A DNA stretch of 37,490 bases. It comes from Candidatus Scatovivens sp. (GTDB taxonomy: Bacteria; Bacillota; Clostridia; TANB77; CAG-508). How positions within the stretch are numbered: position 1 is the stretch's first letter; the number at the start of each line of letters is the position of its first letter. The position numbers and the translations under genes were made by a program. Positions 1,925 through 37,490 of the stretch are shown piece after piece. The notes beneath the pieces are model-generated. The model did not search any database. It was not told the DNA's origin and was given only the letters and a program-made list of their open reading frames with translations. Location: positions 1 to 37,490 of the forward strand of contig JAZROJ010000044.1 in NCBI GenBank assembly GCA_045648625.1, given 5' to 3'.

Positions 1925-1933
1925 GAGGAAATA

Positions 1934-3344: not shown

Positions 3345-3354
3345 AAATAGAAAT

Positions 3355-4188: not shown

Positions 4189-4236
4189 ATAAAAGTAAAA
4201 AAATGGATATTTCCGTAGGGAAAAATGGAGGTAGAA

Positions 4237-4494: not shown

Positions 4495-4522
4495 GGCGCG
4501 GAATAAACAGAAAGGATTTATT

Positions 4523-5206: not shown

Positions 5207-5212
5207 ATATAA

Positions 5213-6028: not shown

Positions 6029-6048
6029 AAATTCGAAAGGGAAAATGC

Positions 6049-6582: not shown

Positions 6583-6615
6583 GATATAAAATATGTAGAT
6601 TTTATAGAAAAGAAG

Positions 6616-8754: not shown

Positions 8755-8787
8755 AAAAGTAAGTTTACTTACAGAAAGGAATTTTAA

Positions 8788-9393
8788 ATGCAAAACAATA
8801 TCAAAATTAGTCAAACCACAAAAGAAATTATATTAAATGTAAATGTAATAGCAGAAATACAAGAGATTTTAGATGAATTACAAACAAAATTACCAAAACT
8901 TAGAGATTTTTATCAATCTTCTAAAATACCAATGAGGGTAACAGGAAGACTGTTTACAGATACAGAAATAGAAGTGGTAAAAAATATAATTAATAATGAA
9001 ATTGATGTGGAAGTAAAATTTGATGATGTTTCAGATTTGCTAGGGCTACATGCAATTAAAAGGACATTTGAAACTCAAACAGATATATCAGAAACAAAAT
9101 TTATTCAAAATTCTATAAGATCTGGACAAAGGGAAGAATATCCAGGAAGCTTAGTTATTTGTGGAGATGTAAATGCAGGAGCAGAAGTCGTGGCAGGAGG
9201 AAATATAATGGTATTAGGAGCTCTAAGAGGAGTGGCTCATGCAGGTGCAAATGGTAATACAATGGCTATGATATCTGCTAATTATATTGATGTTACACAA
9301 GTGCGAATTGCAAATATGGTAAGAGAAGTTCCGGAGAAGACAGAAAAATGTCCTATTTGTAAAGTAGAGAGAAATGAAATTATAATAGTTTAA
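8788..9393 (+). CDS. minC: Septum site-determining protein MinC
   Basis: The C-terminal beta-helix signature is present: GSLVICGDVNAGAEVVAGGNIMVLGALRGVAHAGANGN..A.I.A......Q.RIA. No minD or minE follows. Confidence 0.85.
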   Translation: MQNNIKISQTTKEIILNVNVIAEIQEILDELQTKLPKLRDFYQSSKIPMRVTGRLFTDTEIEVVKNIINNEIDVEVKFDDVSDLLGLHAIKRTFETQTDISETKFIQNSIRSGQREEYPGSLVICGDVNAGAEVVAGGNIMVLGALRGVAHAGANGNTMAMISANYIDVTQVRIANMVREVPEKTEKCPICKVERNEIIIV

Positions 9394-9845
9394 AATAATA
9401 AAAGGAAAAGTGTTAAAATTAAAACAAAATCATAATTGCTTTCAGAAAATTTAGGTTTAATATTAGAATCAAAATTTTCTATAACAGAAAGAAGATTTGC
9501 AATTTTGATATATTGTTCTAGCTTTTCCTTTTTATCATTTTCTAAATATGGTTTTAAAGCCATAAGAAGAGTGTTCCTAGGGCTATGATTATTTTTATTA
9601 ATAGAAGATAAGATGCTTTTAATTTTTAAAATTGTATCTATATCTAAATTAAAGTCACTGGAACTTTCTGAATTATCAAAGTTATTATCGTGTTCATAAT
9701 TCTGATTGTTATCACATCCAGTATTATTATGCATATTTGAATTAGTAGGTGGCTGGTTTCCACCTACTATTTTATTTAAATCAATATCTTTTTCTTTTAA
9801 TATACTAGAAAATTTATTTAGAATATTTGAAAAATCCTCACTCAT
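9390..9845 (-). CDS. Hypothetical 151-aa protein: N-terminal helix, N/D/S-rich middle, conserved-looking LLMALKPYL helix, hydrophobic C-terminal tail
   Basis: SD GAGGGA is followed by an ATG. It converges on minC with a 4-nt overlap (TTAA). The C-terminus FVLILTLFLLLF looks like a tail anchor. No family recognised. Confidence 0.6.
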   Translation of the reverse strand: MSEDFSNILNKFSSILKEKDIDLNKIVGGNQPPTNSNMHNNTGCDNNQNYEHDNNFDNSESSSDFNLDIDTILKIKSILSSINKNNHSPRNTLLMALKPYLENDKKEKLEQYIKIANLLSVIENFDSNIKPKFSESNYDFVLILTLFLLLF

Positions 9846-10337: not shown

Positions 10338-13300
10338 ATGAAACAAGCAATAATTAAAAAGCTAATTATAGCACTGATATTATTTGTAATACTGTTTTCA
10401 AATTTTGGATATACGCTTATTGTAATAGCTTCAAGTGATGAATTTGAAGTTATTAAACACGGTTTTTTTGAAAAAGAAGAAATACAGTTTGAAGCATATT
10501 TTGGAGATGAAGAAGAAAAATCTTATGACAAAATAGTTGAAGTAAATAAAACTGTTGAACTAAATTTAAAGTTAACTCCAAAAATTGAAGGGTATTTAAA
10601 AAATGCAGTAATAAAAGCAGTATCTGAAAACGGAGAATTACCAAATTTTAGAATAAAAAATATAAAATCAAATTCTGAAGAGTTAGAGATAAAAACAGAT
10701 AATGATAATATTGGTTCTGAAAAAACTGAAGAAATATTAGAAAATGTAGTTGTAGAAAATGAAATTGCGGAAGAAGAAAATGTTTCTGCAAGTGAAGAGA
10801 CTGAAAATATAGTAGACAATCAATTTGTTATTGAAGAAAATAACAATATAAAAGATAAAATAGGAACTACAAATGATGTAAATACAACAAATGAAATTGT
10901 AGAAAACGAAGAACAAGAAATATTAGAAAATGAAGAAGAACAAATACAAGAAAATACAGAAAAAAAACAAGAAGAATCAAAAGATGAACAAGAAAAAGAT
11001 AACAATGAAAAACAAGAAGAAATCTTAATTGATGAAGAACAAGTAATAGAAGAAAAAACAAATGAAAGTGAAGAAGAAATAGATTTAATATCTGATGTAA
11101 AATTAATATCAGATAATGAAATTAGCATAAGCAATGTAATTGAAGAAAATGTATATGTTTTAGAATTAGAATATGTACAAGAAGAGAATTTTAAAGTTGA
11201 AGATTTATATAAAAATATTAAATTACAACTTTCAGGAACTTATATTAATAGTGACTTAGCAGAAGTAAAAATAGCGAAAGAAAAAAATATTAAAATTGGC
11301 TGGGAATTTACAAAAGACGTAAATTTAGAAAATGAATATACAAAATTTTCACCATTTAAAGTAGGAGAAACAGTAGGAACAATAGTAGAAAGTACAATTA
11401 TAGTAGAAAGAGAAATATTAGAAGGAAAATATTTACCACTTAAAACAACAAGAATTGTAACTAAAGCCCCAAGATTAAATGGAAAGACACCAATAGAAGT
11501 AAGTGTAATTGCAGAAAAATTATTAGCTACAAGAGGAGAAGATATAGGAGAAGTAAATTTCTATAAAGAGAATTGGAATTATAACGAGCAAAGTGGAGAA
11601 ATAACTATCTTAGTAAATAATGGGCAAGAAGGAATAATAAAAAATGCTAGTGGTATTGATGAATACACACTAATATACAGATATGAAGATTATATAGAAG
11701 ATGATTTGTCTAAATTAACTAGAGATGTGGCTTTAGAGGCAGAACAATATAATGGTAAAGAAAATAAAATAATTAAAAAAGAAATTAGAGACGAACAAAA
11801 AGTAGAAGTAAATGTTGGAGAATTAGTAACATATAGCATAAATTCCACAGAAGAAAAGATAGAAAAATCAAAAATTTATGCAAATTATAATTCAGAAGAA
11901 GCATTACATGAAACAGAATATACAAGCTATATAACTTTAAATATATTAACAAGTGATATGCTTGATAATGTAAAAATTGATTGTTCAAAAGAAGTATATA
12001 AAGATGTAAATGGTTTTGAATTTGAAGCACAAGAAATATATTATAAAAATATTAAATTTAATTATAGTGAAATAAAAAATATATTAGAAAATAGCGGAAA
12101 AATTGAAATTTATAATTTAAATGGAGCGCTTTTATATACATTAGATAGTTCTACAATTCAAAACAATGAGAATTGTATAGTTAACACAAATTATGCAAGT
12201 GGAATTATCATATATGTAAAACATGTTGATACAAATGGGACAATTAATTTCGAATTAACAAAAGTTATAAAAAAATGTAATTATGAAAAATCTGCATTTA
12301 AAAATTTTGTAGAATTAGAAAGTAGAATAAAAGCAGAAGTAAAATATTTAGATTTAGAAGAAACATTAAGTTTAGAAGAAGTAAAAACCACAAAAAAATT
12401 TAATGAAAGTTATACAAGAGCTAATATTTATATTAATAAAGAAGATTTAACAACAATAGAACAAAATGAAAATATAGAAATAAGAGTTGAATTAAATAAT
12501 GATAAACAAGATAGTGATTTATACATAAATCCAAGTTTTGAATTTATATTTCCAAAACATGTAAAACAAGTAACAGTAGAAAATATAAATTTGTTATATG
12601 AAAATGGATTAAGAATAAGTGATTTTCACACATATACAGAAGCAGATGTTGTAAAAATGAGAATAGAGCTTTCTGGAGTGCAAAAAACTTTTAGTGAAAA
12701 TACAATAACAAATGGAACTAATATAATTATAAATGTAAAAATAAAAGTAGATGAATATACACCTGTAAAACAAGATCAAATTAAAATGTATTACTGCAAT
12801 GAAGGTGTAAGTAATTATGAATCTCAAACAAAATGGACTGTTAGCAAACAAATACCAAATGGAATATTAAAAACAACAAATGGATTTGACGTAGCATTAA
12901 TAAAATATAATGCACCGCGAGGATTGATTGCTATTAATAGTATTGTAAATTATGATGGTAATTTAAGTGAAATTAAATCTGTAAAAGAAGGAGAAAAAAG
13001 TGCTCAAATAGCAATTAATTCTTCTTCAAAAATAGCAACAATGGAATTACTTGCATTAAACAATACAGGTAATGAATGTTCAGATATAGTAATGATAGGA
13101 AGAATTCCTTTTAAAGGAAATAAAGATGTAATTAGCAACAAAGACTTAGGAATAACTACAACTGCTGTTATGCAAGAATTTATAAAAGAAAATATTCAAA
13201 ACTTTAATATGACAACTATTTATTATTCAACTAATGAAAATGCAACTAAAGATTTAGAAAATGAAGAAAATGGTTGGATATTAGCAGAACAAATTGCAAA

Positions 13301-16085
13301 TGTTACAGAAGTTAAATCTTTTATGATTATGGTAAAAGGTAATATGGCACCAGGAGCTGTTTTAAGATATACATACCAATTTGAAATACCAGAAAAATTA
13401 CCTTATGAAGCAAATATTTCTGGAAGTTTTGGAATTTATTATAACAACAATACAGATGTAGCAATAATATATGAGAGTGTTTTAGCAGATAAAGTCTCTT
13501 TAAAAACAGAAGCAGGACCAAAAGTAGAAGCTTTATTAAGTGTTGATGTAGGAGATGGAACTGAAGTTGGAGAAGCAAGATTCTTAAATTACACTTTAAA
13601 AGTAAAAAACGTGGGTAGTGTTGTTGCAGAAAATATAACAATAAAAAATCCTGTACCACAATATACAGTATTATATGAATATATGGAAGAGGCATTTGTA
13701 GGTAATGATAATTATGTTTCAAGTAGCAAAACCATTTTAGATTGGACTATAGAGAAATTAGATATAGGGGAAGAAAAAACATATAAATATATGGTAAAAA
13801 CTAGAGAAATACCACCTTTTGAATCATATTGTTATATAAATGGATTTATTCAAGATGAGAGCGGTTATTATTATGAAGAAACCGATGAAAATGGAAATAT
13901 AAATAAAAAATATGTGGATGAAAGTTTTAAAGTTTTTATAGAAAATAAAGCGACAATATCTATAGGGAATTTGGCAATAAATATAGATAGTAATATTGTC
14001 AAAAATCAAATTGTAGATTCAATTTTTGACTTGAATTTTAGTAGATCTTGTTCTGAAAATGTTCCTATAGGAAATGATGTGTCATTTTCTATAAGTGCAA
14101 AAAATATTTCTGGAAAAGTTTTAAATAATATAAAACTAGAAGTGGCTTTACCATCAAATCTAAAATATAAAAACACATTGGTAAAGTCTGCAGTAGAAGA
14201 TATAAAAGCAACTGTAAATTACAATGAGGAAGAACAAGTATTGCAAATTACATTTGAGGAAATTATAAGAGAAGATTTAATTACGATTTATATAGATTCA
14301 GAAGTAATATCAGGGGATTTAATAGAGAAAGATATACAAGCTCATTTTTATACAGGAGATGGAAAAAAAGAAAGTTCTACACCAATATATTTAACTTTTT
14401 TAGGACCTAAGTTAGAAATTGAACAAACTACAAATTTAATAGAAAATCATGTAAAAGAGCAAGAGTATATAGAATTTTTAATAACAGTAAAAAATACAGG
14501 AAATTGGATAGCAAAAGATTTAAAAATAAGTAATGTAATATCAGAGAATTTAAAAAATGTTACAGCTGAAGTTACTGGAGATATTAGCACTCAATTAAAA
14601 GTAGAAAATAATAAAATAAATACAATCTTATATGGATTAGAGTCAAACAAAAAAATGGTACTAAAAATATCAGGAAATGCAACAGAAATAGAAGACTTAA
14701 ATAAAAGAAATGATATTATAAATAAAGCAATTATATCAGCCAATTATGCACCAGAACAAGAGACAGAAGAAATAAGATTGAATATATACTATAATCCAGA
14801 AAAGGTAAAAAGTGAAGAAGAAATTTTAATGGATAACTTGATAGAATATGAAGAAATAAATATAAATTCTAATCAGGAAATAGAAGAAAATAAAGAAATA
14901 AATCATGATTCAAATGTTGTATTGGAAGAAGATGAAGAAAAAGAAAATGATAATTTAGCAGAGAATAATTCTATTGAAAATAACTATATAGAAGATCAAG
15001 AGTCAGAAGAAAACAAAACAGAAGAAAAAGTTGAGGAAATAAAAACTAATAACCAAATTAGTAATGAATCTCTAAATGAAGACATAGTTAAACCAAATAT
15101 AGAAGAGCAAAAATATACTATTTCAGGAAGTATTTGGTTAGATACAAATAAAAATGGTATTAAAGATGATAATGAAGAAAATATTTCAGCAACAAAAGTA
15201 CAATTATTAAAATCAGATACTATGATAAAAGCAACAACAACAGATGGAAATGGAAAATATGAATTTTCTGGTTTATCTAAAGGTACTTATAAAGTTATAT
15301 TTATTTATGATGGAATTAGGTATATGGCTACAACTTATAAAGTGGCAGACACTCAAGAAGAGATAAATTCTGTAGCTATAGAAAGTAATCAAGGAACTTC
15401 TGTAACAAATAATATAGAAATAAATGATTCAAATATTATTAATATCAATTTTGGATTAGTAAGAAAAAAAGTGTTTAACATGAGTATTAATAAATATATA
15501 ACTAAAGCTATTTTAAAAACAAAAGAAAAAGAAGAAGTACATAATTATGAAAATTTAAAATTAGGCAAGTTAGAAATAAATCCAAAAGAAATAAATGAAG
15601 CAGAAGTTACATTAGAATACTCTATTATAGTAAAAAATGATGGTGAAGTAGTAGGAAATGTTGCAAAAATAATGGATATTATACCAAAAGACATGATTTT
15701 TGATATATATCAAAATGAGAATTGGTATTTAGGTGATGATGGAAATGTTTATAATGATTCATTAAAAGATATTACTTTAAACCCTGGAGAGTCGAAAGAG
15801 TTAAAATTGATTTTAACTAAGAAAATGACTGAAAATAATACTGGGGTTATAAGTAACAAAGTTGCAATTTTAGGAACAGAAAATGCAGAAGGTAGGATAG
15901 AATTATCAGATGATAATGTAGACACCCAGGAAATGTTAATATTAGTAAGTACAGGAAAAACTTTGATTAGCCTAATTATAACAATATTAAGTTTTATTGT
16001 AATTGCTCTTGTTATATGGAGCATAAAATCAAAAACTGTATTAGAGAAATTAAAGATAATGAGAAATGGTAAAATTTATAAGTAA
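10338..16085 (+). CDS. Giant surface protein A1 (1915 aa): signal peptide, acidic low-complexity inserts, DUF11-like repeats, one SdrD-B-like domain, C-terminal xVxTG/TM/basic tail
   Basis: The start is moved to ATG 10338 (SD agaaagagga; MKQAIIKKLIIALILFVILFSNFGYTLIVIASS is a signal peptide). It is paralogous and colinear with A2. Shared blocks include FEAYFG.EEEK, GYLKN, KAP.L..KTP, NGTNI..N..IK, Y.AP.GL.A.NSI.NYD, GRIPFKG.KD.IS..DLG, IYYSTN..ATK.L...ENGW. DUF11/CARDB-like strands are present (Y.L.VKNVG...A.NI.I.N). Confidence 0.9.
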   Translation: MKQAIIKKLIIALILFVILFSNFGYTLIVIASSDEFEVIKHGFFEKEEIQFEAYFGDEEEKSYDKIVEVNKTVELNLKLTPKIEGYLKNAVIKAVSENGELPNFRIKNIKSNSEELEIKTDNDNIGSEKTEEILENVVVENEIAEEENVSASEETENIVDNQFVIEENNNIKDKIGTTNDVNTTNEIVENEEQEILENEEEQIQENTEKKQEESKDEQEKDNNEKQEEILIDEEQVIEEKTNESEEEIDLISDVKLISDNEISISNVIEENVYVLELEYVQEENFKVEDLYKNIKLQLSGTYINSDLAEVKIAKEKNIKIGWEFTKDVNLENEYTKFSPFKVGETVGTIVESTIIVEREILEGKYLPLKTTRIVTKAPRLNGKTPIEVSVIAEKLLATRGEDIGEVNFYKENWNYNEQSGEITILVNNGQEGIIKNASGIDEYTLIYRYEDYIEDDLSKLTRDVALEAEQYNGKENKIIKKEIRDEQKVEVNVGELVTYSINSTEEKIEKSKIYANYNSEEALHETEYTSYITLNILTSDMLDNVKIDCSKEVYKDVNGFEFEAQEIYYKNIKFNYSEIKNILENSGKIEIYNLNGALLYTLDSSTIQNNENCIVNTNYASGIIIYVKHVDTNGTINFELTKVIKKCNYEKSAFKNFVELESRIKAEVKYLDLEETLSLEEVKTTKKFNESYTRANIYINKEDLTTIEQNENIEIRVELNNDKQDSDLYINPSFEFIFPKHVKQVTVENINLLYENGLRISDFHTYTEADVVKMRIELSGVQKTFSENTITNGTNIIINVKIKVDEYTPVKQDQIKMYYCNEGVSNYESQTKWTVSKQIPNGILKTTNGFDVALIKYNAPRGLIAINSIVNYDGNLSEIKSVKEGEKSAQIAINSSSKIATMELLALNNTGNECSDIVMIGRIPFKGNKDVISNKDLGITTTAVMQEFIKENIQNFNMTTIYYSTNENATKDLENEENGWILAEQIANVTEVKSFMIMVKGNMAPGAVLRYTYQFEIPEKLPYEANISGSFGIYYNNNTDVAIIYESVLADKVSLKTEAGPKVEALLSVDVGDGTEVGEARFLNYTLKVKNVGSVVAENITIKNPVPQYTVLYEYMEEAFVGNDNYVSSSKTILDWTIEKLDIGEEKTYKYMVKTREIPPFESYCYINGFIQDESGYYYEETDENGNINKKYVDESFKVFIENKATISIGNLAINIDSNIVKNQIVDSIFDLNFSRSCSENVPIGNDVSFSISAKNISGKVLNNIKLEVALPSNLKYKNTLVKSAVEDIKATVNYNEEEQVLQITFEEIIREDLITIYIDSEVISGDLIEKDIQAHFYTGDGKKESSTPIYLTFLGPKLEIEQTTNLIENHVKEQEYIEFLITVKNTGNWIAKDLKISNVISENLKNVTAEVTGDISTQLKVENNKINTILYGLESNKKMVLKISGNATEIEDLNKRNDIINKAIISANYAPEQETEEIRLNIYYNPEKVKSEEEILMDNLIEYEEININSNQEIEENKEINHDSNVVLEEDEEKENDNLAENNSIENNYIEDQESEENKTEEKVEEIKTNNQISNESLNEDIVKPNIEEQKYTISGSIWLDTNKNGIKDDNEENISATKVQLLKSDTMIKATTTDGNGKYEFSGLSKGTYKVIFIYDGIRYMATTYKVADTQEEINSVAIESNQGTSVTNNIEINDSNIININFGLVRKKVFNMSINKYITKAILKTKEKEEVHNYENLKLGKLEINPKEINEAEVTLEYSIIVKNDGEVVGNVAKIMDIIPKDMIFDIYQNENWYLGDDGNVYNDSLKDITLNPGESKELKLILTKKMTENNTGVISNKVAILGTENAEGRIELSDDNVDTQEMLILVSTGKTLISLIITILSFIVIALVIWSIKSKTVLEKLKIMRNGKIYK
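10674..11090 (+). repeat. E/N/Q-rich acidic low-complexity insert in A1 (absent from paralog A2)
   Basis: SEELEIKTDNDN...ENEEQEILENEEEQIQENTEKKQEESKDEQEKDNNEKQEEILIDEEQVIEEKTNESEEEIDL is purine-rich GAA/AAT-type codon reiteration. A2 passes straight from the GYLKN block to the next conserved block without it. Confidence 0.8.
15114..15461 (+). other. SdrD B-like (Ca-binding, prealbumin-like fold) domain in A1
   Basis: YTISGSIWLDTNKNGIKDDNEENISATKVQLL....TTTDGNGKYEFSGLSKGTYKVIFIYDG..Y..TTY matches the G.VW.D.N.NG..D..E.G...V.L....T.T...G.Y.F..L..G.Y.V.F signature. Confidence 0.7.
15942..16082 (+). other. C-terminal sorting-signal-like tail of A1: LVSTG + 21-aa hydrophobic segment + Lys-rich tail
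   Basis: MLILVSTGKTLISLIITILSFIVIALVIWSIKSKTVLEKLKIMRNGKIYK. Confidence 0.5.
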
Positions 16086-16097
16086 GGAGGTGAAATT

Positions 16098-24769: not shown

Positions 24770-24835
24770 GGTACTTAGTAAAATAAGATGCTATTACTAT
24801 GTCAAAAGTTTATAATCGTAGGAGGAATTAAGATT

Positions 24836-27800: not shown

Positions 27801-29893
27801 TGACTATAGAAAATACGGACCAAAATGTAAAAATATTATTAGGCGAAATAAAAGAAAATGAAGAAGTAGATATAAAAGTATTTTTTAATGTAGAAAAAAT
27901 ACAAAATATTGAAGAAGAAATTATAATAAATGCTTATGTAACAGCAAAAGATTTAGGGAAAGATTTAGTTTCAAACACAGAGAATGTTAAAATAACAAAA
28001 GCGGATTATTCATTATATTTATATGCTTCAGATACAAAAGCAACAGACGGAATTCAAGAAGTAGGAACAGAATTAGAGATAATGATACAAATCAAAAATT
28101 TAACTTCTAACGAAAAGAATAATGTTGTTGTAACTCAAGAAATACCACTGGGCTTTGACTTTGTAAATGCCAATGTTTGTTCAGAGAATTTTGTAAGACT
28201 GGAAAAAACAGCTAATTATAATGAAGAGACAAGAGTAATTACATGGAATATTGATAATATTAAAGCTAATTATTCAAGATGTGTAGCTTATAAAATAAAA
28301 ATAGCAGAATTACCAGAAGGTATAACAAAACAAGAGATTCGTTCTGTGGCTAAAATTACAGAAAATGGAGAAGTTTATAATTCTAATACTTTACTAATTA
28401 CTTCTGGAAAAGCGGTGCTTACAATTCATCAAATAGCAGATGTGGAAAATACATACATAAAAGAGGGTACTTGTATTAATTATATATATACAATTAAAAA
28501 TGAAGGCACTGTAGCTGCAAGAAGTGTTAAATTGGTAAATGAAACACCAGATGGATTAATTATAAGAAATATAAAATTAAATTCAAATGGATTTGAAACA
28601 AATCAACAATTATCTTCTAAAACACAATCAATAATAAGTTTAACTATTATGCCAAAAGAAGAGGCTAAAGTAACAATAAAAGCTTATGCAAGTAATTTAA
28701 AAGGTGTACAAGAAAAAACAGTAACAAATCTTGGAGTATTAAAATTATCTAATTCAGAGGAAATTAAATCAAATTCTATAACTCATATTATAGAAGCAAC
28801 TGAGAAAAACGTAGTTAATAAGGGTGATGAAGATTCTTTTGTAGGAAATGGTTCAACATCGAATGATATTGTAAAAACATACAAAATCACAGGTGTTGCT
28901 TGGTTAGATTCTAACGAAAATGGTATGAGAGATGCTAGAGAACAATTAATGCCTGGAATATCAGCAAAGTTAATTAATAATGAAACAGGTGTAATTACTA
29001 AATCAGTAACGACAGATAATAAAGGTACATATATTTTTGAAGGTGTACAAAATGGAAAATATTTAATTATATTTGATTATGATACAGCTAAATATACTGT
29101 TACAACATATCAAAAAACAGATATAGCTACAAATGTAAATTCAGATGCTATTACTGCTCAAATTGAGCAAAATGGAACAATAAGAAATGGAGCAGTAACA
29201 GATGTTATTGAGATAAAAAATGGTAGTATATCAAATATAGATATAGGTTTTATATATGCAGACATGTTTGATTTACAATTAGAAAAAACAATTACTAAAG
29301 TTACAGTTCAAACCTCTAAAGGAACAACAAATTCAATATATGATAAAGCTACTTTAGCAAAAGCCGAAATACATTCAAAATATGTATCTGGTTCTACAGT
29401 ATATGTTGAATATACTATTACAGTAAGAAATGTTGGAGAAATAGCAGGATATGCTAAAAAGATAGTAGATTATATTCCAGAAGGAATGATATTTAATTCA
29501 AGTTTAGAAGCAAATAAAAATTGGTACACAGGAACAGATCAAAAATTATATACAACAGCTTTATCTAATATTGAATTAGCAGCTGGTCAATCAATGGATA
29601 TAAAATTAGTTTTAATTAAAAACATGACATCAGAAAATACAGGACCAGTAAGTAACTTAGCAGAAATATATGAAGCTTATAATATTTATGGTGTAACAGA
29701 TGAAAATTCTATTCCAGCTAATAAAGCTCAGGGAGAAAATGATTTAGGAAAAGCAGATGTAATTATAACAGTAAAAACAGGAGAAGTATTTATAAACATT
29801 TCTTTAATAATTACAAGTATTTTATTAGGAAGTGTTGCAGTGTTTATTATTTATAATTCACTGATGTTAAGAAAAAGAAAAGGAGGTGCTTAA
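24836..29893 (+). CDS. Giant surface protein A2 (1685 aa), paralog of A1: signal peptide, DUF11-like repeats, one SdrD-B-like domain, C-terminal xVxTG/TM/basic tail
   Basis: The start is moved to ATG 24836 (SD AGGAGG; MCKNKILEKLLAIILIFTLTFANFAFA is a signal peptide). It is colinear with A1 (see A1 evidence) but lacks the two acidic inserts. Confidence 0.9.
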   Translation: MCKNKILEKLLAIILIFTLTFANFAFATESIAMSIAKTLFGKKADTGHKNVEFEAYFGTEEEKETSVISDVNNQELCINLDLGIKSSGYLKNGKIEILEFQEGENLNFKVKEDIYLSENIQDFENNVIYLNQIDFSDEKNNISLPIMYENEDYVSEEKLSKDARIKFSGIYVDEDGEEVEVSREITLNISWKDEREVRIESDITKYIDFEDRVILQTSVKIDNSTDKNTLPIKKSKVEIKAPVLDEKTPTKVTVVANSTEGTNGKKAGDVIFNEENWYYNQESGLLTITVENEKQLVEINKNAEQYLKEADEEIEQEERYYSKSGIDEYFITYTFENGIMNETTILTSEILAETTLLSGVENDDFINVITSENDVEYSFEGKTGDIVSLNIENETKEISKAYMYSNYNHNSKYQIEHNTKTILNIAYKEFIEEIYIEDVKEFYEDEQQNNVVTEDFYYKQLSISKENFDKILGETGRLDVCDLNQNIIATIDNESEIDENGNFIINFENKIDKVIIKISAPVEEGNFVINKTREIANVSIDKETLKSMKAIGIEEKIKVKHFNIDNVQDIQKQSIYTNLLDTTTKANLVIDRNSLSTLAMNENVELRIELNNATDKSDLYGHSVFEIELPSDLESVEIINSKLVYGEGLEITKVEVIDRIIRITLDGVQEGINSGILTNGTNITLNANIKLNLYSPAKTEKIKLRYTNDEATNYETNGYEELEVEYSAPTGLVAVNSISNYDSKGSTVTSVRQGYKEDIIDVYAEAKTSTMEIILMNNNNNEISDLSILGRIPFKGVKDIISGNDLGATVDTKLISNIISDEHNNVGFDIYYSTNGEATKSLDDLENGWTRVPENLETIKSYLIVPADKTYEMEETEILKFTYQYEIPENLSHNENIFGTFIAYYINHSEVATTEETSVPDLVGLTTGKGPELDISIKVNKEVVKELEEIETTITVKNIGKQVAQDIILNIPTPQYTKYKRVKSEKENLTIENTDQNVKILLGEIKENEEVDIKVFFNVEKIQNIEEEIIINAYVTAKDLGKDLVSNTENVKITKADYSLYLYASDTKATDGIQEVGTELEIMIQIKNLTSNEKNNVVVTQEIPLGFDFVNANVCSENFVRLEKTANYNEETRVITWNIDNIKANYSRCVAYKIKIAELPEGITKQEIRSVAKITENGEVYNSNTLLITSGKAVLTIHQIADVENTYIKEGTCINYIYTIKNEGTVAARSVKLVNETPDGLIIRNIKLNSNGFETNQQLSSKTQSIISLTIMPKEEAKVTIKAYASNLKGVQEKTVTNLGVLKLSNSEEIKSNSITHIIEATEKNVVNKGDEDSFVGNGSTSNDIVKTYKITGVAWLDSNENGMRDAREQLMPGISAKLINNETGVITKSVTTDNKGTYIFEGVQNGKYLIIFDYDTAKYTVTTYQKTDIATNVNSDAITAQIEQNGTIRNGAVTDVIEIKNGSISNIDIGFIYADMFDLQLEKTITKVTVQTSKGTTNSIYDKATLAKAEIHSKYVSGSTVYVEYTITVRNVGEIAGYAKKIVDYIPEGMIFNSSLEANKNWYTGTDQKLYTTALSNIELAAGQSMDIKLVLIKNMTSENTGPVSNLAEIYEAYNIYGVTDENSIPANKAQGENDLGKADVIITVKTGEVFINISLIITSILLGSVAVFIIYNSLMLRKRKGGA
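28880..29254 (+). other. SdrD B-like domain in A2
   Basis: YKITGVAWLDSNENGMRDAREQLMPGISAKLINNETGVITKSVTTDNKGTYIFEGVQNGKYLIIFDYDTAKYTVTTY. Confidence 0.7.
29768..29890 (+). other. C-terminal sorting-signal-like tail of A2: TVKTG + hydrophobic segment + RKRKGGA
   Basis: ADVIITVKTGEVFINISLIITSILLGSVAVFIIYNSLMLRKRKGGA. Confidence 0.5.
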
Positions 29894-29894
29894 T

Positions 29895-32800
29895 ATGAAT
29901 AGAAAGTTTGAAAAAATGAATAAAAAATTAATGTTTTCTGTGTTGACTATTATTGCAGTATTAAGTGCCTTATTAATATGTTCAATATATGCAGCGAGTA
30001 TAACACCAGAGATGAGCTCTAAAGGTTCTGGGTTGGGAAATGGTCAAAAGGGTGCAACAGGTTCTTTATATCGTGAAGATTTAATAGAAAGATATGATAT
30101 ATTGTGTGCATCACAAGGAACTAATGTACCGTTTTCATACGCAGGTCAAGAGACAAAATATGAAGTAGTTGATGTAAAAACAGCATCTCCTAAAGAAGCA
30201 TATATTTTAGCTGAGATGGTTAATGATTTAGAGGAACTTTCTCGAAATGAAATCTCTTTTTTAACTGATGCAAATGGTAATTATTTAGAATATAAAGATG
30301 TTAATAATTTGAAAAATTCACAGACTATTACATCTGGTGATAGAACCATGTATATTATTAATAATCAAAATGTTGAAGATGCAGATGGAAACCAAACAAA
30401 TCAAGAAATGGGAGCTGGTAGTGAAAAAATAGTTATGCAAGGAGAAGATGGCAAATATTACTATGTTGCAACATCTTCGAATTCAGGATATAACTCTTAT
30501 GGAAATATATATTCTTATGTACAAAGAGCTTGGTGGAATACAAGCGCTGGTGGAGGAGGAATACCTGTACCACCAAATGAATTATTTATGGAAGCAGAGC
30601 AATTTGAAGCTTATATAAATCAGTTAGGACCAAGCGGAGAATATAAACCAAGTTGGGGAAATACTAATCCTACTGTATCTTATGATATGGAAGGACAATA
30701 TTTCTTAATGGGACCTTTTTCAATAGATTATGTTGAAGCTTATTCTAGTTCAACAGGAAGACCAGAGGTTATGTTTGCTGGGATTACAGGAGTAGAAGTA
30801 AGTACAAATGGAGCAAGCGGACCTTTAGAACTAGGTAACGGATGGGAATTTTATTGGCAAGATAGAGATAGTTCAGAGGATTCTGAATATCCTCGTCCAG
30901 GAGAATCTTTTTATATAAAATTAGATTATCAAGAAGATGCTTCTATAGTTAGTAATATAAAATTTAAATTTAAATATATGAAGGCAGAAGGACGTTATGA
31001 ACAATTAGAAGGGAAATATTATATAGTAACAGAAGATGGAACATATGAAAAAACAGCACAATCTTTAACTGGTGGTTTAAGTGGAGAAAGATGGTATGAA
31101 GAAGTAGAATTAGACTGGACTGGTGATTATGAAGCTGAAGAACCACCGATAGAAGAAGATGACGACGACGATGATGATGATGATGATGACGATGATGATG
31201 ACGATGATGACGATGATGATGACCCACCAACTCCACCAGAGCCAACTGTATATTTTGGAAATTTAAGAATTGTAAAAAAATTAACAGAACCAGCAAAAAT
31301 GAATCAAAGTTTTTCTATTATCGTAAAAATTACAAGTGATGGAAAAACTTCAGAAATACCATTGGTGTTAAACATTACTGAAGGCCAAACAGAGGCATAT
31401 ACAGAACTTAGTGGATTTAGCTGGACTGAAGGAAATGCACCAACATATACAGTTGAAGAAGATACTACTTTTAATAGTGATTACGAATTACAATCAATTA
31501 CTCCTAGAAGTGGAACAATAAAAAGTGGTGAAGTAACTACAGTAACAGTAACAAATAAACCAATAAAAGAAAAAGTAAAACTAAAAATTGTTAAAACTCT
31601 AGAGAATGCAGATTTGTATACTAATGAATATATAGAATCTTTGGTATTCAAATTTAAAATTAATGTAGACGAATATGGTACAAATATAATCGAATTAAAA
31701 CCTATAAGGGAAAATAAAAGATATATATGGTATTATGAATCAGATTATTATTATTTAGAAAAAAATCAATTATTAAATTATTCAATAGAAGAATTTGATT
31801 TGCCAGAAGGAACAAGCTTTGTTAGTGCAAATTGTTCTGATAATGCAATAACGGTAAGCGGAACAACTGTAAAAGGTGTTTTATCTGATATAAATGGAGA
31901 CCTAACAGTAACTAATAACATTATTAACAAAATAGAAGCTCCTAGAAAAGGTAATTTAAAAATAACTAAAATCATAAATTCAGATACATTAGCAGCAAAA
32001 GATTATAAATTTGTGCTAAAAGTTTCAGGAACATTTACTTATCAAGGAAATACCTTTGTAAATGACACTATGGAAATTCCAGTAACAATAAATGTTCCAG
32101 CAGGTACAACATCTGCAGAGACAGTATTAACAGATTTTATATGGAATGGAAATGAGCCTACATATTTATTAGAAGAAAACTTAAATGGTTTAGATGGAAT
32201 TCAAGCAACTATAAATCCAAAACAAGGAAATTTAAAAAATAGTGAAACAATAAATATTATTGCAGAAAACAGAACAAAAACTAGTAAAAAAGGTTCTTTA
32301 CATATTATAAAAGTATTAGAAAATGCTAATAATTTCTCAAATGAATATATTAAATCTTTAATTTTTAAATTTAATATTAAAGTTGGAGAAAAAGATTATG
32401 GAATTGTTTCTTTAAAACCAGAACTTGTAAATAATAAATATATTTGGGAATATAGGGCTGATTATACTTGGTCTGAAGATGAAGCAAATCCAACATATGT
32501 AATAAAAGAAGTAGAACTTCCAGAAGGAACATATTTAGGTGGAATAAATGCAGATAGAGATGCTACAGTTAATCTTAGTGAAAAAACTGTAACAGGAAAA
32601 CTAAGACCAGATAGTGAAGACGATTTTGTAGTAAAAAATGAATTTATAAATAAAATAAATAAAACATCTGGATATTTGAAAATAGAGAAAAAAGTAATAG
32701 ATAAAGCATTAAAAGGTATTGCATTTAAATTTAAAGTACAAATAAAAGGTACTTTCAAATATAATGGAACTGAATATAACAATACAACAATGTTATTAAC

Positions 32801-35800
32801 AGATATTAATGTTTCTAGTGAAAACATGTGGACCTCTAATGTAATTGAATGGTATGGTGAAAATGCACCAACTTATATAGTTGAAGAGCAAGATTCAAGT
32901 ATTTCTAAGTTGATGTCTGTTATTAATAGTAGTGGTAAATTAGTAGAAGGAGGAGTAGCGAATGCTCAAGTTGCAACTTTTACTAATGGTTCTAAAAAAA
33001 TAGGTGGCCAAATTCAAATTACAAAAAAATTAGAAAATGGCGGTACTAGTGAGGATACATTTTATTTTAGAATAACAGTAGAAGGGTATGAGCCATACAT
33101 TGTAGGTATAAAAGCAGGAGAAACATATCGTTCTGAAAAATTTATATGGAGTGGAGATATTGCTCCTACATATACAGTAGAAGAGATTGATTCAGGAAGA
33201 GCTACTCTTGTAAGTATATCTAATGCTACTGGAAGATTAGATAAAGATGGAATTATAAATGTGGTTTGTGTTAACAGACTAGAATCTCAAGGAGCTAAGA
33301 TAAGAGTAACAAAAGAGATTATTACTGATGAGAAAATGCAAGCAGATGCTCTTGACGGAGTATTTACTATCAGTGTAGCGATTACAGGTTCATTTACATT
33401 AAATGGAGAACATTTTGTAAATTCTACTAAAGTTATTACTGATACATTAAGAGCTGGCGAAAGTTTTGAAACACCAATAATTGAGTGGTCTGGAGAAACA
33501 GCTCCTACATATACAGTTTCAGAAGTAGGAATGCCTAAAGGATGGAAATTACAAAGCATTACTAATGAAAGAGGAACTCTACAAGAAAATAAAACTATAG
33601 ATTGTATAGTAACAAACAAATTAAGTACTAGAGTAGAATTAAATTTAACAATAGGATTATCTGGTTTTGTTTGGGAAGATACTAAAGTAGAAAATAAAGA
33701 GTCAGAACAAATTCAAAATTATGGAACACAAGGTATTTATGATCAAGGTGAAATAGGCCTTGATGGTGTAGAAGTTTACATTTATAAAGTTATTTATAGT
33801 GGAAATACAGAAATATCAAGAGAATTAGCAAGAGGAGCTAGTTATCCAATATACACAGAAGGTGGATACTGGAGTGCACCTAAACTAAATGTACCAGCAG
33901 TATCAAAAGAGCAAAAAGAGAGTGGATGTAGAGCTACATATGATGTTGAGTTTATATATGATGGTCAAACTTATGAACCTACAACATTCTTAAAAACATC
34001 AGGAGGTAGTGCAGAATCTTTTAAATCAGCTACTACAACACAAAGAGATGGCTGGATTAAAGATTCTATGGCATTAGATTATAATCGTGAAGAAGTAAAT
34101 AATAGAATAGCACAAGTTTCTGGTGGAAGCCCAATAGATATTGATGGAAATACAGTAGGTCAAGTAAGTGGTTCTGGAAATTATTCTGTATATTATAAGG
34201 CAACAGATTATTCAGAAGGTTTTGATACTTCAAGAAAAGTTTCTAAATTACAAACAAAAGATAGCAGAGGAAAAATTTATGAAGTATTTAAAACTACAGC
34301 AAGAACTTCAGAAGGTGGATTAACATATCCTTTTGATAATAAATGTCACTTAGAAAATGTAGATAAAGATATAGATGATTTAGGTATGGTGGAAACATAT
34401 ACATATTCATCAACTTATGGTTATACTACAAATATTAACTTAGGTTTAATTAGAAGAGAAGAGGCAGATATAGGAGTAACAAAAGATTTATATTCTGCTA
34501 AAGTAGTTGTTAATGGAAAAGTAATTAATTATAGATTTAATTCATTAGCAGATTTGACAGGAAGCTCAATATCAAGACAATTAGATGCAGATAATATGAA
34601 TATTAACTATAAATTAGGTCTTTATAATACAGATTATTATTATAGAGCAGAATTGTATCAGACAAAAGGTACTATGTATGATGCTGTAGAAGAATTTTAT
34701 AAATCAGTATTATTAAAAGATGTAAGCTCAACAGAATTGGATGTATATCTAACATATAAAATTAATGTTTATAATGAATCACCAACATATGTTGTTGGAA
34801 TAAATAGTATTGATGATTATTTTGATAGCAGTTTTGGATCACCAATAATGGAACCAGAAACAAAATATATTCAAACAATAGATGGAAAACCAGTAGAAAA
34901 AGTTACAGAAATAGCAAATGCTTCAACTGTAAATGGTTCAAAAGTAAACTGGGTAGTAACAGATAAGAATTTATTAGGATCTGATAATTTAACTTATAAT
35001 AAAATGACTGCTAACTTAGGAAATTTAAGATTGGCAAGTGGAGATAAAGCCGAAATTATAGTAACTTTTAAAGTACAAAAAGAAAATTATGAAGGTGTAA
35101 AAAATGCAATTATATTAGGGCAAAAAGCTAATATAGTAGAAATTTCTAATTATTCAACATATTATAGTAATGGAAGCGTAGCTGGTAAAATTGATAGAGA
35201 TTCAGCTCCAGGAAACATCAATATAAATGAATATAATGAAAGATCTTGGTATGAAGATGATACAGATTCAGCTCCAATACTTAACTTAACTATTGTTGAA
35301 GAAGAAAGAAATATAAAAGGTACAGCTTGGGAAGATAGAGCTGATGTGTCAAATATTGGAAATGGTAAGTATGATGATGGAGAAGCTCTAATAGGAGGTT
35401 TAACTACTCAACTTATCGAAAAAGTATTAGTTAAAAATCCAGGTGCATCAACAGAGTATACCGAATATGATTTCTTATGGCCTACAAATAGACAGTTAGA
35501 CATATTAGGAGGTAGAACTCTAGAATCTTTAACAGGATTTGATAGTACTACAGAAACTTCAAGAACAAATTCAATAGATGGACTAAAACCAGGAGAATAT
35601 TTATTTGAAAATATTCCAGCAGGTAACTATGTTGTAAGATTCTTATATGGAAATGATAAAACAGAATTGGAAGATTCTGAAAATATTACAGGAGCACCTG
35701 TTGCATTAAAATTAGATGCTTCTGGAAATGTAACTCCATATTCTGGAAATGAAAAAATATTAATAGCAAATTATGATGGAGATGCACTTCAAAAAACCAC

Positions 35801-37490: not shown

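What the first reader, a model, noticed from the sequence alone, without database searches (positions are those of the whole stretch)
10338..37490. 27-kb locus of five giant ORFs: a tandemly duplicated two-gene (A+B) surface-fibre/adhesin module
All coding capacity from 10.3 kb to the window end is five same-strand ORFs totalling about 8,900 codons. By eye they resolve into two colinear modules.
- A1 and A2 share many ordered sequence blocks, listed in the feature evidence.
- B1 (both ORFs joined) and B2 share a different ordered set.
- In both modules the A stop codon lies within or next to the AGGAGGTG SD of B.
- Module 1 ends in a strong terminator (24425-24457), and module 2 has its own promoter region.
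- A-type and B-type proteins keep distinct C-terminal sorting motifs in both copies.
- Only B-type proteins carry thioester-domain-like motifs.

SdrD-B, DUF11 and CnaB-like domains, a TED-like tip and sortase-like tails are the parts list of Gram-positive covalent adhesins and pili. However, a conserved pairing of two roughly 1,700-2,800-aa proteins is not an arrangement I recognise. There is no pilin motif, no sortase and no canonical LPXTG in the locus. My hypothesis is a two-component surface structure, with A as the stalk or base and B as the thioester-tipped adhesin, present in two antigenically diverged copies.
Basis: partly seen in the sequence, partly recalled or inferred. Interest (0 to 1): 0.85.

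Follow-up and report, generated by a model that had tools for sequence, protein, structure and literature searches.

The report
Paired giant adhesin genes, tandemly duplicated
An uncultured gut Clostridium carries two tandem copies of a conserved gene pair for giant cell-surface fibre proteins, a headless stalk protein and a partner whose tip probably binds targets covalently; this is an unusual arrangement of known adhesin parts, not a new kind of system.

Summary
From 10.3 kb to the window end there are only same-strand giant ORFs, forming two colinear A+B modules. A1/A2 align at E=3e-119, B1C/B2 at E=1e-63, and the B1/B2 heads at hhalign E=2e-17.

B1 is one gene split by a single extra C (CCCC, 20226-20229). 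Orthologues are intact ORFs of 2,600-3,000 aa.

A is an all-beta stalk of Ig-like, CLIPPER/DUF11 and SdrD_B domains with no recognisable head. B has an N-terminal head with the thioester-domain (TED) motif set. Its only Foldseek hit at E<=0.001 is a class II TED, but no TED HMM matches.

Each class keeps its own sortase-type tail: A has [IV][KR]TGE, B has xPPTG (like Cpa's VPPTG).

The pair is strongly conserved. In 76 loci from uncultured gut Clostridia, 88 of 91 A genes are followed by B. B's Shine-Dalgarno sequence lies within or just after A's last codons. In 21 loci type 1 precedes type 2. No sortase lies within 10 kb.

Verdict: a new variant of TIE/fibrillar adhesins. Joint A+B function is well supported by genomics. 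Covalent A-B assembly is unproven.

The parts
10338..16085 (+). A1: type-1 stalk-only giant surface protein (ORF opens at 10296; the likely start is the ATG at 10338, ahead of a signal peptide)
   Evidence: ORF. SdrD_B (E=2e-17) and DUF11/CLIPPER (E=1e-10). Homologous to A2 at E=3e-119. Signal-peptide-like N-terminus MKQAIIKKLIIALILFVILF.
15942..16085 (+). A1 C-terminal sorting-type signal: LVSTG, a hydrophobic segment and a basic tail ending KIYK
   Evidence: The type-1 tail KK[IV]YK recurs in orthologues.
16083..16100 (+). A1 stop / B1 SD / B1 start junction (TAA-GGAGGTG-N5-ATG)
   Evidence: The same type-1 junction (stop, GGAGG, ATG about 12-14 nt downstream) is seen in orthologues.
16098..24420 (+). 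B1: type-1 head-bearing giant adhesin gene, split into two ORFs (16098-20261 and 20239-24420) by a frameshift
   Evidence: Removing one C gives a single 2,773-aa ORF whose junction aligns with intact orthologues of 2,600-3,000 aa. B1C vs B2 gives E=1e-63.
20226..20229 (+). CCCC run holding the 1-nt insertion that splits B1
   Evidence: With CCC the sequence reads ...GGEYTVMKPGEYMEYTIKLNV, matching the orthologue consensus ...ETILNPGEYIIYYVT.
16365..18197 (+). B1 head domain (TED-like): FC131VE, GQ292RALW, SQ677PML, with a Cys-rich insert of about 165 aa
   Evidence: Head homology to B2-type heads by hhalign is E=1.9e-17.
24256..24420 (+). B1 C-terminal sorting-type signal: IPPTG, a polar spacer, a hydrophobic segment and KKYRKRTIK
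24424..24465 (+). Intrinsic terminator ending module 1
   Evidence: 14-bp stem plus T-run, -16.9 kcal/mol, z=-5.2, 0 of 200 shuffles as stable.
24569..24597 (+). Promoter-like site for module 2 (TTGAAA-17-TATAAT, 11 of 12 matches); a second site lies at 24742-24769
   Evidence: This is a consensus match only.
24836..29893 (+). A2: type-2 stalk-only giant surface protein (ORF opens at 24788; homologues start at the ATG at 24836)
   Evidence: AF2 model of residues 1-970 has pLDDT 84.8 and is all-beta. Its best Foldseek hit is the PrgB Ig-like stalk at E=1.9e-16. SdrD_B lies at 28889-29164 and CLIPPER at 28049-28366.
29768..29893 (+). A2 C-terminal sorting-type signal: TVKTGE, a hydrophobic segment and RKRKGGA
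   Evidence: The family consensus is [IV][KR]TGE ... KRKGGV, with T and G invariant.
29881..29897 (+). A2 stop / B2 SD overlap: AGGAGGTG encodes A2's last residues (K-G-G-A), then TAA, one base, and ATG
   Evidence: The junction AAAGGAGGTGTTTAATATG is nearly invariant in type-2 pairs.
29895..37490 (+). B2: type-2 head-bearing giant adhesin (2,531 aa counted from the ATG)
   Evidence: No Pfam or NCBIfam family matches and no PDB sequence matches. Five to six CnaB-style GxLxIxK...YxVxE...VxN modules lie at residues 458 to about 1160.
30000..31142 (+). B2 head domain (TED-like). ATG numbering: Cys71 (30105-30107), Q210-R-A-W-W (30522-30536), Gln389 (31059-31061)
   Evidence: C, QxAxW and Q are invariant in 28 homologues. 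C is kept in 84/91 and Q in 81/91 across loci. AF2 pLDDT is 79.7. The only Foldseek hit at E<=0.001 is the class II TED 6fwy.
31158..31222 (+). Poly-Asp linker, about 22 GAT/GAC codons, between the B2 head and stalk
37365..37490 (+). B2 C-terminal sorting-type signal: TPPTG, a polar spacer, a hydrophobic segment and KKKVIKK
   Evidence: The family consensus is T(L/F)TPPTG[LI] ... KKKVLK.

Best explanation
The locus holds two tandem, anciently diverged copies of a conserved, translationally coupled two-gene cassette for giant Sec-exported cell-surface fibre proteins. The host is an uncultured, spore-forming gut Clostridium.

A (about 1,700-1,900 aa) is a headless rod. It starts with a string of Ig-like beta-sandwich domains, followed by CLIPPER/DUF11 and SdrD_B domains. 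Those two families are the ones known or predicted to carry stabilising intramolecular isopeptide bonds.

B (about 2,500-2,800 aa) carries an N-terminal head that is most likely a divergent class-II-like thioester domain. Cys71 and Gln389 would form an internal thioester that attacks a nucleophile on a host or microbial ligand, giving covalent adhesion. The head sits on a long stalk of CnaB-like, Ig-like and SdrD_B-like domains.

Both proteins end in a tripartite sortase-type signal whose motif is class specific: [IV][KR]TG(E) in A and xPPTG in B. These are presumably processed by a sortase encoded elsewhere in the genome.

A and B are almost never separated and were duplicated as a unit. B's ribosome-binding site lies within or right after A's last codons. 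I therefore infer that they act together as one adhesive surface structure, most plausibly with A as the wall-proximal base or spacer and B as the distal adhesin.

Shown: homology, domain content, motifs, synteny and coupling.
Inferred: the thioester chemistry, sortase processing and physical A-B cooperation.

In this assembly B1 is inactivated, or mis-assembled, by a 1-nt frameshift.
For: - Paralogy of the modules.
- A domain content: SdrD_B and CLIPPER. The N-terminal 970 aa is confidently all-beta and matches the PrgB Ig-like stalk, integrin legs and MG domains, with no separate head.
- CLIPPER and SdrD_B are described as isopeptide stalk domains of fibrillar adhesins (bioRxiv 10.1101/2025.04.25.650565).
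- B head: the few columns conserved at 80% or more across 91 heads include Cys (84/91) and Q-x-A-x-W (81, 75 and 82 of 91), the rest being a few Gly/Pro/aromatic positions. C71, Q210 and Q389 are invariant in 28 homologues, and no invariant His, Asp or Asn appears.
- These fit the published TED motifs [YFL]C-Phi-zeta, TQXX-Phi-W and Phi-Q-zeta-Phi-Phi (PMC6194298).
- In the AF2 model the Cys is on a short strand and QxxPhiW on a helix, followed by a beta-sandwich and a very long twisted hairpin bearing Q389. That is the order described for class II TEDs.
- The only Foldseek hit at E<=0.001 among 350,542 chains is the E. faecium TIE86 class II TED.
- Sorting-type tails are conserved and class specific. 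VPPTG is the motif of the TED-bearing pilus tip adhesin Cpa and is cleaved by a class B sortase (PMC3019223). (S/P)PXTG is cleaved by C. difficile SrtB (PMC4155245).
- Coupling: 88 of 91 A genes are followed by B within 400 nt, and the SD/stop junction is conserved. B relatives at 25-33% identity are still preceded by A.
- Arrays seen in the 25-kb loci: AB 37, BAB 16, ABAB 16. Type 1 precedes type 2 in 21 loci.
Against: - No TED HMM from Pfam or NCBIfam matches any of 10 diverse heads even at E<=10, nor 6 remote relatives.
- Profile searches against PDB sequences find no TED.
- The Foldseek TED hit has poor TM-scores (0.12-0.14) and a probability of 0.25.
- The Cys-Gln distance in the model could not be measured.
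- No sortase gene lies in the window or within +/-10 kb in 76 related loci.
- No curated sorting-signal model matches the tails.
- There is no pilin motif or E-box.
- NVQTG, the closest known analogue of A's xVxTG, was not cleaved by C. difficile SrtB in vitro.
- There are no expression or localisation data; every homologue comes from a MAG.
- One remote head-related protein (P0157, with a VWA domain) is not directly preceded by A.
Confidence: 0.6

Rival explanations
1. A and B are two independent wall-anchored adhesins that merely share an operon. There is no physical or functional A-B complex, and A binds its own ligand through its N-terminal Ig-like domains.
For: No sortase, pilin motif or E-box is present in the cluster. 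Stalk-only fibrillar-adhesin-like proteins are common, and stalk domains may themselves bind ligands (PMC9210967). Each protein has a complete signal peptide and its own anchor signal.
Against: Adjacency is near-absolute (88/91) and persists down to 25-30% identity. The pair is duplicated only as a unit. The SD-in-stop coupling is conserved. Independent adhesins would be expected to shuffle or be lost separately.
Confidence: 0.3
2. The B head is not a thioester domain. It would be a non-covalent binding module or another Cys-dependent fold, and the Cys, QxxPhiW and Q motifs are coincidental or purely structural.
For: No TED HMM or PDB sequence match was found. The Foldseek TM-scores are only 0.12-0.14. 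The family is small and isolated, with 209 representative clusters among 1.84 billion proteins.
Against: All three TED motifs occur in the correct order and on the correct secondary-structure elements. A TED is the top-ranked structure out of 350,542 chains, and this was predicted before the search was run. No invariant His, Asp or Asn is present, which a Cys protease or transglutaminase would need. The head sits at the N-terminus of an isopeptide-type stalk with an xPPTG tail, as in Cpa.
Confidence: 0.3
3. Neither protein is processed by a sortase. Both stay tethered in the membrane by their C-terminal TM helix, and the conserved TG motifs serve another role.
For: No sortase lies within +/-10 kb in 76 loci. 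The tails match no LPXTG or sorting-signal HMM. B has an unusually long polar spacer of 10-16 residues between PPTG and the TM segment.
Against: The motif, hydrophobic segment and basic tail form the classic tripartite layout. T-G is invariant in A. PPTG is conserved in most B tails. Both motif types have precedents as sortase B-class substrates. Housekeeping sortases are usually unlinked to their substrates (general knowledge).
Confidence: 0.12
4. The locus is decaying or non-functional in this organism, because B1 is a pseudogene.
For: B1 is interrupted by a frameshift.
Against: The other three giant ORFs (5.1-7.6 kb) are intact in an AT-rich genome, where random stop codons are frequent. 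The lesion is a single base in a homopolymer on a MAG contig seen only once, so an assembly error is equally likely. Orthologues are intact.
Confidence: 0.05

Closest known systems
TIE proteins (thioester-isopeptide-ester domain adhesins), especially class II TED proteins such as E. faecium TIE86, BaTIE and SaTIE (PMC6194298; PMC4450167)
   Same: An N-terminal head with a [YFL]C-Phi-zeta Cys, an xQxx-Phi-W helix and a downstream conserved Gln. A beta-sandwich and long hairpin follow the helical lobe. The stalk is made of CnaB/CnaA-type domains. The C-terminus has a sortase-type signal. The best structural match is 6fwy.
   Different: B is 4-5 times longer, at about 2,500-2,800 aa compared with 557 residues for the BaTIE ORF and an 86-kDa EfmTIE86. 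The head matches no TED HMM and has large insertions (Cys to Gln spacing of 318 aa, versus about 170-200). The anchor motif is xPPTG rather than LPXTG. The gene is obligatorily paired with a headless partner gene.
S. pyogenes FCT pilus: Cpa (TED tip adhesin, VPPTG), Spy0128 (shaft, EVPTG) and Spy0130 (base), assembled by the class B sortase Spy0129 (PMC3019223)
   Same: A thioester-type tip protein with an xPPTG motif is encoded beside a stalk-type protein that has a different xxxTG motif. The subunits have class-specific sorting motifs.
   Different: No sortase or SipA-like gene lies in or near the cluster. No pilin-motif lysine is recognisable. The subunits are 5-8 times larger. There is no evidence of polymerisation. 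The gene order is A (stalk) before B (tip), with translational coupling.
Fibrillar adhesins with CLIPPER/DUF11 and SdrD_B stalks (bioRxiv 10.1101/2025.04.25.650565; PMC9210967)
   Same: A has CLIPPER and SdrD_B domains, a signal peptide and a C-terminal anchor signal. 'Stalk-only' predicted fibrillar adhesins are a recognised category.
   Different: A's domains are all mutually diverged, with no internal repeats by BLAST, whereas typical stalks are tandem repeats. Its conserved coupling to a head-bearing partner did not come up in the passages of these papers that I read.
C. difficile SrtB substrates, (S/P)PXTG; CbpA with NVQTG (PMC4155245)
   Same: Clostridial precedent for PPxTG-like and xVxTG-like sorting motifs used in place of LPXTG.
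   Different: B has [TI]PPTG, so position 1 is not S or P. NVQTG was not cleaved in vitro. The sortase of these MAGs is unknown.

Membership tests
Thioester domain (TED) / TIE adhesins | Bond-forming Cys in a [YFL]C-Phi-zeta motif near the start of the domain | tested here: met
   B2 has LC74AS and B1 has FC131VE. The family shows FCCQ, LCCQ, YCMQ and FCAQ. Cys is conserved in 84/91 heads and is invariant in 28 homologues.
Thioester domain (TED) / TIE adhesins | TQXX-Phi-W motif on helix alpha2 | tested here: met
   B2 has VQRAWW, B1 has GQRALW, and the family has xQxA[WILV]W. Q is kept in 81/91 and W in 82/91, and the motif lies on a predicted helix at 208-214. The leading T is not conserved.
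Thioester domain (TED) / TIE adhesins | Conserved bond-forming Gln (Phi-Q-zeta-Phi-Phi) C-terminal to the helical lobe, placed next to the Cys | tested here: inconclusive
   Q389 (AQSLT) is invariant in 28 homologues. An [ST]Qx[LIVM] motif, mostly SQxLA, was found by regex in only 48 of 91 heads.
Thioester domain (TED) / TIE adhesins | TED fold (beta-barrel plus three-helix bundle; class II adds a beta-sandwich and a slipknot hairpin) | tested here: inconclusive
   The top and only Foldseek hit at E<=0.001 is 6fwy (EfmTIE86 TED), at E=7.9e-4, with TM 0.12-0.14 and probability 0.25. The secondary-structure order agrees with the class II description.
Thioester domain (TED) / TIE adhesins | Match to curated TED models (Pfam or NCBIfam TED/TQXA families) | tested here: not met
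   No TED family was listed by the full Pfam-A and NCBIfam scans: whole proteins, 10 isolated heads at E<=10 and 6 remote relatives. Profile searches against PDB sequences found no TED.
Thioester domain (TED) / TIE adhesins | A physical Cys-Gln thioester (-17 Da; covalent adducts) | not testable with these tools
   This needs mass spectrometry or crystallography of the recombinant head.
Sortase-assembled Gram-positive pilus | Dedicated pilus sortase gene inside the cluster | tested here: not met
   None in the window. None among the recurrent flank genes within +/-10 kb of 76 loci.
Sortase-assembled Gram-positive pilus | Pilin motif (YPKN-type Lys) and E-box in the shaft subunit | tested here: not met
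   The regex search found no conserved pilin motif or E-box in A1, A2, B1 or B2. A does have 12 invariant lysines whose roles are unknown.
Sortase-assembled Gram-positive pilus | Each subunit carries an LPXTG-like cell-wall sorting signal, with subunit-specific motifs | tested here: met
   A has [IV][KR]TGE and B has xPPTG, each followed by a TM segment and a basic tail, conserved across 94 A and 109 B ORFs. VPPTG and EVPTG are the precedents.
Sortase-assembled Gram-positive pilus | Covalent polymer or heteromer (SDS-resistant ladder) | not testable with these tools
   This needs immunoblotting or MS on cultured or enriched cells.
Canonical LPXTG cell-wall-anchored proteins | LPXTG motif and a match to curated anchor models | tested here: not met
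   No LPXTG is present. No anchor or sorting-signal family was listed for the isolated tails, even at E<=10. The tripartite layout itself is present by inspection.
Fibrillar adhesin (stalk + adhesive domain + anchor) | Stalk built from known stalk domains | tested here: met
   A has CLIPPER/DUF11 and SdrD_B above the Pfam cut-offs plus Ig-like domains. B has CnaB-style K/E/N modules, with only sub-threshold DUF7601, DUF5979 and SdrD_B hits.
Fibrillar adhesin (stalk + adhesive domain + anchor) | A distinct adhesive head domain in the same polypeptide | tested here: inconclusive
   B has a distinct head of about 380 aa. In A, no head was found in residues 1-970.

The most novel reading that the evidence does not exclude
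A and B are covalently joined. An unlinked sortase would ligate the Thr of B's xPPTG to a lysine of A, and A's [IV]KTG would be ligated to peptidoglycan. The result would be a defined two-subunit fibre of about 4,200-4,700 residues with a thioester tip. That would be a minimal, non-polymerising 'pilus' built without a dedicated sortase gene, pilin motif or E-box, and kept as two paralogous systems in a clade of uncultured gut Clostridia.
Probability: 0.2. Interest if true: 0.75.

Novelty: new variant of a known kind. Interest (0 to 1): 0.55.

Why it matters
If the reading is right, a whole clade of uncultured animal- and human-gut Clostridia (Candidatus Scatovivens and relatives) devotes about 13-27 kb of chromosome to a conserved pair of giant surface proteins. 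One of them probably binds its target covalently.

- **Thioester domains:** it would extend them to a divergent subfamily that current HMMs miss, with 209 representative clusters worldwide.
- **Stalk-only adhesins:** it would give these puzzling predicted proteins a concrete, testable role as obligate partners of head-bearing adhesins.
- **Colonisation:** it would supply candidate colonisation factors for organisms known only from metagenomes.
- **Assembly:** the strict A-B coupling without a linked sortase poses a clear question about how such fibres are put together.
- **Tools:** the isolated head is a candidate for new covalent protein-ligation tools.

Tried and rejected
- **TED HMM and sequence searches.** Pfam and NCBIfam scans of whole proteins, isolated heads and remote relatives gave nothing for TED. 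phmmer and profile searches against PDB sequences gave no TED, only spurious nanobody hits.
- **Sorting-signal models.** Scans of the isolated C-terminal tails gave only noise.
- **Sortase search.** All ORFs of the window, and clustered recurrent flank ORFs of 76 loci, gave only housekeeping genes: MreB/C/D, PBP2, MinC, KsgA, SpoIIE and a transposase.
- **The 151-aa reverse ORF upstream.** It is conserved but has no family match and is not a sortase.
- **Internal repeats.** None were found in A or B by BLAST, so these are not classic tandem-repeat stalks.
- **Rfam scan for regulatory RNAs.** It found only a tRNA.
- **Cluster look-up to validate the frameshift.** All window proteins are singletons, so this is undecidable.
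- **Cys-protease or transglutaminase reading of the head.** Rejected because no His, Asp or Asn is invariant.
- **Model coordinates.** They are not exposed to the sandbox, so the Cys-Gln distance could not be measured.
- **First profile-search submission.** It was rebuilt as alignment A5.
- **Horizontal-transfer island.** No compositional contrast with the flanks was seen (GC 0.23-0.32 throughout), and the insertion site between minC and spoIIE is syntenic across species.
Full report
**1. What is in the sequence**

The window is AT-rich (GC 0.23-0.32). It is a complete 37,490-bp contig, and its proteins are seen nowhere else in a collection of 15 billion proteins.

Positions 1-9,400 encode ordinary chromosomal genes: a VanW/G5 protein, an M23 peptidase, MecA, RadC, MreC, MreD, a PBP2-type transpeptidase and MinC. 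There is also a CotF-domain ORF and a tRNA-Lys.

From 10,296 to the last base there are only five same-strand giant ORFs.
- A1 and A2 are clearly homologous: 33% identity over 885 aa at E=3e-119, plus 27% over 687 aa.
- B1C aligns with the C-terminal 1,000 residues of B2: 27% over 1,179 aa, E about 1e-63.
- B1N and the B2 N-terminus are only marginally similar pairwise (E=0.002).
- A profile built solely from B2-type heads finds B1N at the colinear position. It scores 12.8 bits, and none of 200 shuffles exceeds 4.3 bits.
- A profile-profile comparison of B1-type against B2-type heads gives 98.9% probability and E=1.9e-17.

The two-module A+B description is therefore correct and far beyond chance.

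**2. B1 is one gene with a one-base lesion**

In related genomes the B1 orthologue is a single ORF of 2,600-3,000 aa. The end of B1N and the start of B1C abut colinearly on those orthologues. Deleting one C from the CCCC run at 20226-20229 restores a 2,773-aa ORF. Its junction (...GGEYTVMKPGEYMEYTIKLNV...) matches the orthologue consensus (...ETILNPGEYIIYYVT...). I could not decide whether this is a real pseudogenising mutation or a homopolymer assembly error, because the contig is unique.

**3. Signals around the genes**

- The A1 stop (16083-16085) is followed at once by GGAGGTG, and the B1 ATG is at 16098.
- The A2 stop (29891-29893) lies just after AGGAGGTG, with the B2 ATG one base later at 29895.
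- Module 1 ends in a strong intrinsic terminator at 24424-24455: a 14-bp stem plus T-run, z=-5.2.
- A near-consensus sigma-70-type site, TTGAAA-17-TATAAT, lies at 24569-24597 ahead of A2.
- No Rfam element lies in the leaders.

**4. What A is**

Pfam finds SdrD_B and DUF11 above their cut-offs in both A proteins, and NCBIfam finds only the DUF11-type repeat. DUF11 has been renamed CLIPPER. It was shown crystallographically to be a CnaA-like domain with an intramolecular isopeptide bond, typical of fibrillar-adhesin stalks. SdrD_B was also flagged as a probable isopeptide domain (10.1101/2025.04.25.650565).

The unannotated N-terminal 970 residues of A2 fold confidently (pLDDT 84.8) into a chain of beta-sandwiches. 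The best structural matches are the Ig-like stalk of the enterococcal adhesin PrgB (E=1.9e-16), integrin leg domains and alpha2-macroglobulin MG domains. No separate head or enzymatic fold appears. A is thus a stalk-only rod. Its domains are mutually diverged, with no internal BLAST repeats.

**5. What B is**

B matches almost nothing in curated libraries. No Pfam or NCBIfam family reaches threshold, and there are only sub-threshold hints of CnaB-like stalk families. No PDB sequence matches, even with a family profile. B2 has five to six CnaB-style GxLxIxK...YxVxE...VxN modules between residues 458 and about 1160. B1 has none with that signature, which explains why the middles do not align.

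The N-terminal head of about 380 residues is the informative part.
- Across 91 B heads only ten columns are conserved at 80% or more. They include a Cys (84/91) and Q-x-A-x-W (81, 75 and 82 of 91); the others are a few Gly, Pro and aromatic positions.
- In 28 database homologues C71, Q210, A212, W213/214 and a second Gln (Q389) are invariant, and no His, Asp or Asn is.
- These correspond to the three published TED motifs: [YFL]C-Phi-zeta with the bond-forming Cys, TQXX-Phi-W on helix alpha2, and Phi-Q-zeta-Phi-Phi with the bond-forming Gln (PMC6194298).
- The AF2 model (pLDDT 79.7, pTM 0.71) puts the Cys on a short strand and QxxPhiW on a helix. Next come a long helix, a beta-sandwich, and a very long twisted hairpin bearing Q389. 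This is the order described for class II TEDs.
- Foldseek against 350,542 PDB chains returns one hit at E<=0.001, the class II TED of E. faecium TIE86 (6fwy, E=7.9e-4). Its TM-scores are poor, at 0.12-0.14.

Against the assignment:
- No TED HMM matches 10 diverse heads even at E<=10.
- None matches six remote relatives.
- A head-only profile finds no TED among PDB sequences.

An exhaustive profile search finds only 209 representative clusters among 1.84 billion proteins, so this is a small, isolated head family. I put the chance of a true thioester domain at roughly 0.7.

**6. Anchoring signals**

All four proteins begin with signal-peptide-like N-termini. They end with a motif, a hydrophobic segment and a basic tail.

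The motifs are class specific and conserved over 94 A-type and 109 B-type ORFs. A has [IV][KR]TGE directly before the TM segment. B has T(L/F)TPPTG[LI], followed by a polar spacer of 10-16 residues and then the TM segment. T and G are invariant in A.

Neither tail matches any curated sorting-signal model. There is no LPXTG, pilin motif or E-box.

Precedents exist. VPPTG is the sorting motif of Cpa, the thioester-bearing pilus tip adhesin of S. pyogenes. The class B sortase Spy0129 uses it and also accepts EVPTG of the shaft pilin (PMC3019223). [quoted passage not shown]

**7. Comparative genomics**

- A scan of one genome per species (185,579 species) with an A-type alignment found 234 relatives. 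The 76 loci retrieved all come from uncultured gut Clostridia MAGs: Candidatus Scatovivens, and rabbit, mouse, sheep, deer, chicken and human samples.
- 88 of 91 A genes with at least 1.5 kb of downstream sequence are followed within 400 nt by a B-type ORF.
- In type-2 pairs the junction AAAGGAGGTGTTTAATATG is nearly invariant. A's last residues (K-G-G-V) are encoded by B's Shine-Dalgarno sequence, and one base separates the stop from the start. Type-1 pairs have stop-GGAGG-ATG within about 13 nt.
- From the B side, relatives at 31-34% identity (P0150, P0151, P0152), and even 25% (P0153), are directly preceded by an A gene.
- Architectures seen in 25-kb views are AB (37), BAB (16), ABAB (16) and ABA (4). 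AAB occurs only once.
- Type-1 genes (A1/B1-like, tails KK[IV]YK and K[KR]RYK) lie upstream of type-2 genes (A2/B2-like, tails RKGGV and KKVLK) in 21 loci. Only one locus hints at the reverse order.
- Some genomes carry two type-2 modules instead.
- The insertion site is syntenic, lying after mreCD, the PBP2 gene, minC and a small reverse ORF, and before spoIIE.
- No sortase recurs within +/-10 kb.

**8. Interpretation**

The parts are those of Gram-positive covalent adhesins, the TIE proteins and fibrillar adhesins. The arrangement is what is unusual: a headless stalk protein and a head-bearing adhesin, each giant and each with its own sorting motif. They are locked together by translational coupling, duplicated only as a pair, and conserved down to about 25-30% identity.

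I conclude that A and B function together as one adhesive surface structure. B provides a probably covalent binding tip, and both are anchored through an unlinked sortase.

Covalent joining of B to A, which would make a two-subunit mini-pilus, is the most interesting reading. It is only inferred, and the lack of a linked sortase and pilin motif weakens it. I put it at about 0.2.

The rivals cannot be excluded with these tools. They are independent co-expressed adhesins, a non-thioester head, and membrane-retained proteins.

**9. Verdict**

Its interpretation is partly supported, with three changes: the modules are ancient paralogues rather than recent antigenic variants, B1 is frameshifted, and the TED assignment is probable but not proven.

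Novelty: a new variant of a known kind. Interest is moderate, at about 0.55.

Noticed in passing
window 31158-31222: The B2 head and stalk are joined by a run of about 22 Asp codons (GAT/GAC), followed by PPTPPEP. This is an in-frame trinucleotide tract that could vary in length between strains. The homologues inspected lack it.
   Followed up: partly
window ~17580-18080 (B1 residues ~495-660): The B1 head carries a Cys-rich insert of about 165 aa with 12 Cys, including CGC, CMC and CxC. It lies between the beta-sandwich and the SQxxL hairpin. Many homologues (for example P0128, P0145, P0146, P0152) have a shorter Cys/His-rich insert (C..C..CSHG..H) at the same spot, and B2 has none. It may be a metal-binding or disulfide knuckle beside the putative thioester site.
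   Followed up: no
window 9390-9845 (-): A 151-aa ORF with an Asn/Asp-rich middle and a hydrophobic C-terminal tail. It has no Pfam match, but it is conserved at the same position, between minC and the first A gene, in 22 related loci.
   Followed up: partly
window 10893-11057: A1 contains a Glu/Lys-rich low-complexity tract encoded by imperfect 24- and 45-nt repeats. A2 lacks it, and this accounts for part of the A1/A2 length difference.
   Followed up: no
window 1452-1527 (-), 1739-2182 (+): A tRNA-Lys(CTT) gene. Next to it are a CotF-domain ORF (1934-2182, E=2e-17) and a small 61-aa ORF. Together with SpoIIE downstream of the cassette in relatives, this points to a spore-forming host.
   Followed up: partly
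window 37488-37490 (contig end): The contig, which equals the window, ends exactly on the B2 stop codon. All encoded proteins are singleton clusters seen only on this contig, so the downstream context is unknown here. In relatives the downstream gene is SpoIIE.
   Followed up: partly
P0225, P0243, P0267, P0157 (L085:8001-15890): The C-terminal beta-sandwich half of the B head (profile positions ~255-460) also occurs at internal positions in other giant surface proteins. One is a VWA-domain protein that is not directly preceded by an A gene, although an A-type gene lies about 5 kb downstream.
   Followed up: partly
L084:1-4525: In one metagenomic locus an A-B pair is preceded by a different giant ORF carrying SdrD_B and MucBP domains. 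This suggests that other head types can occupy the array.
   Followed up: no
L071:13608-14576 (-), L050:8441-8833 (+): A PD-(D/E)XK-family transposase ORF in L071 and a T4SS-pilin/TrbC-like ORF in L050 each belong to an ORF cluster found in four of the related loci. This hints at occasional mobile-element activity around the arrays.
   Followed up: no
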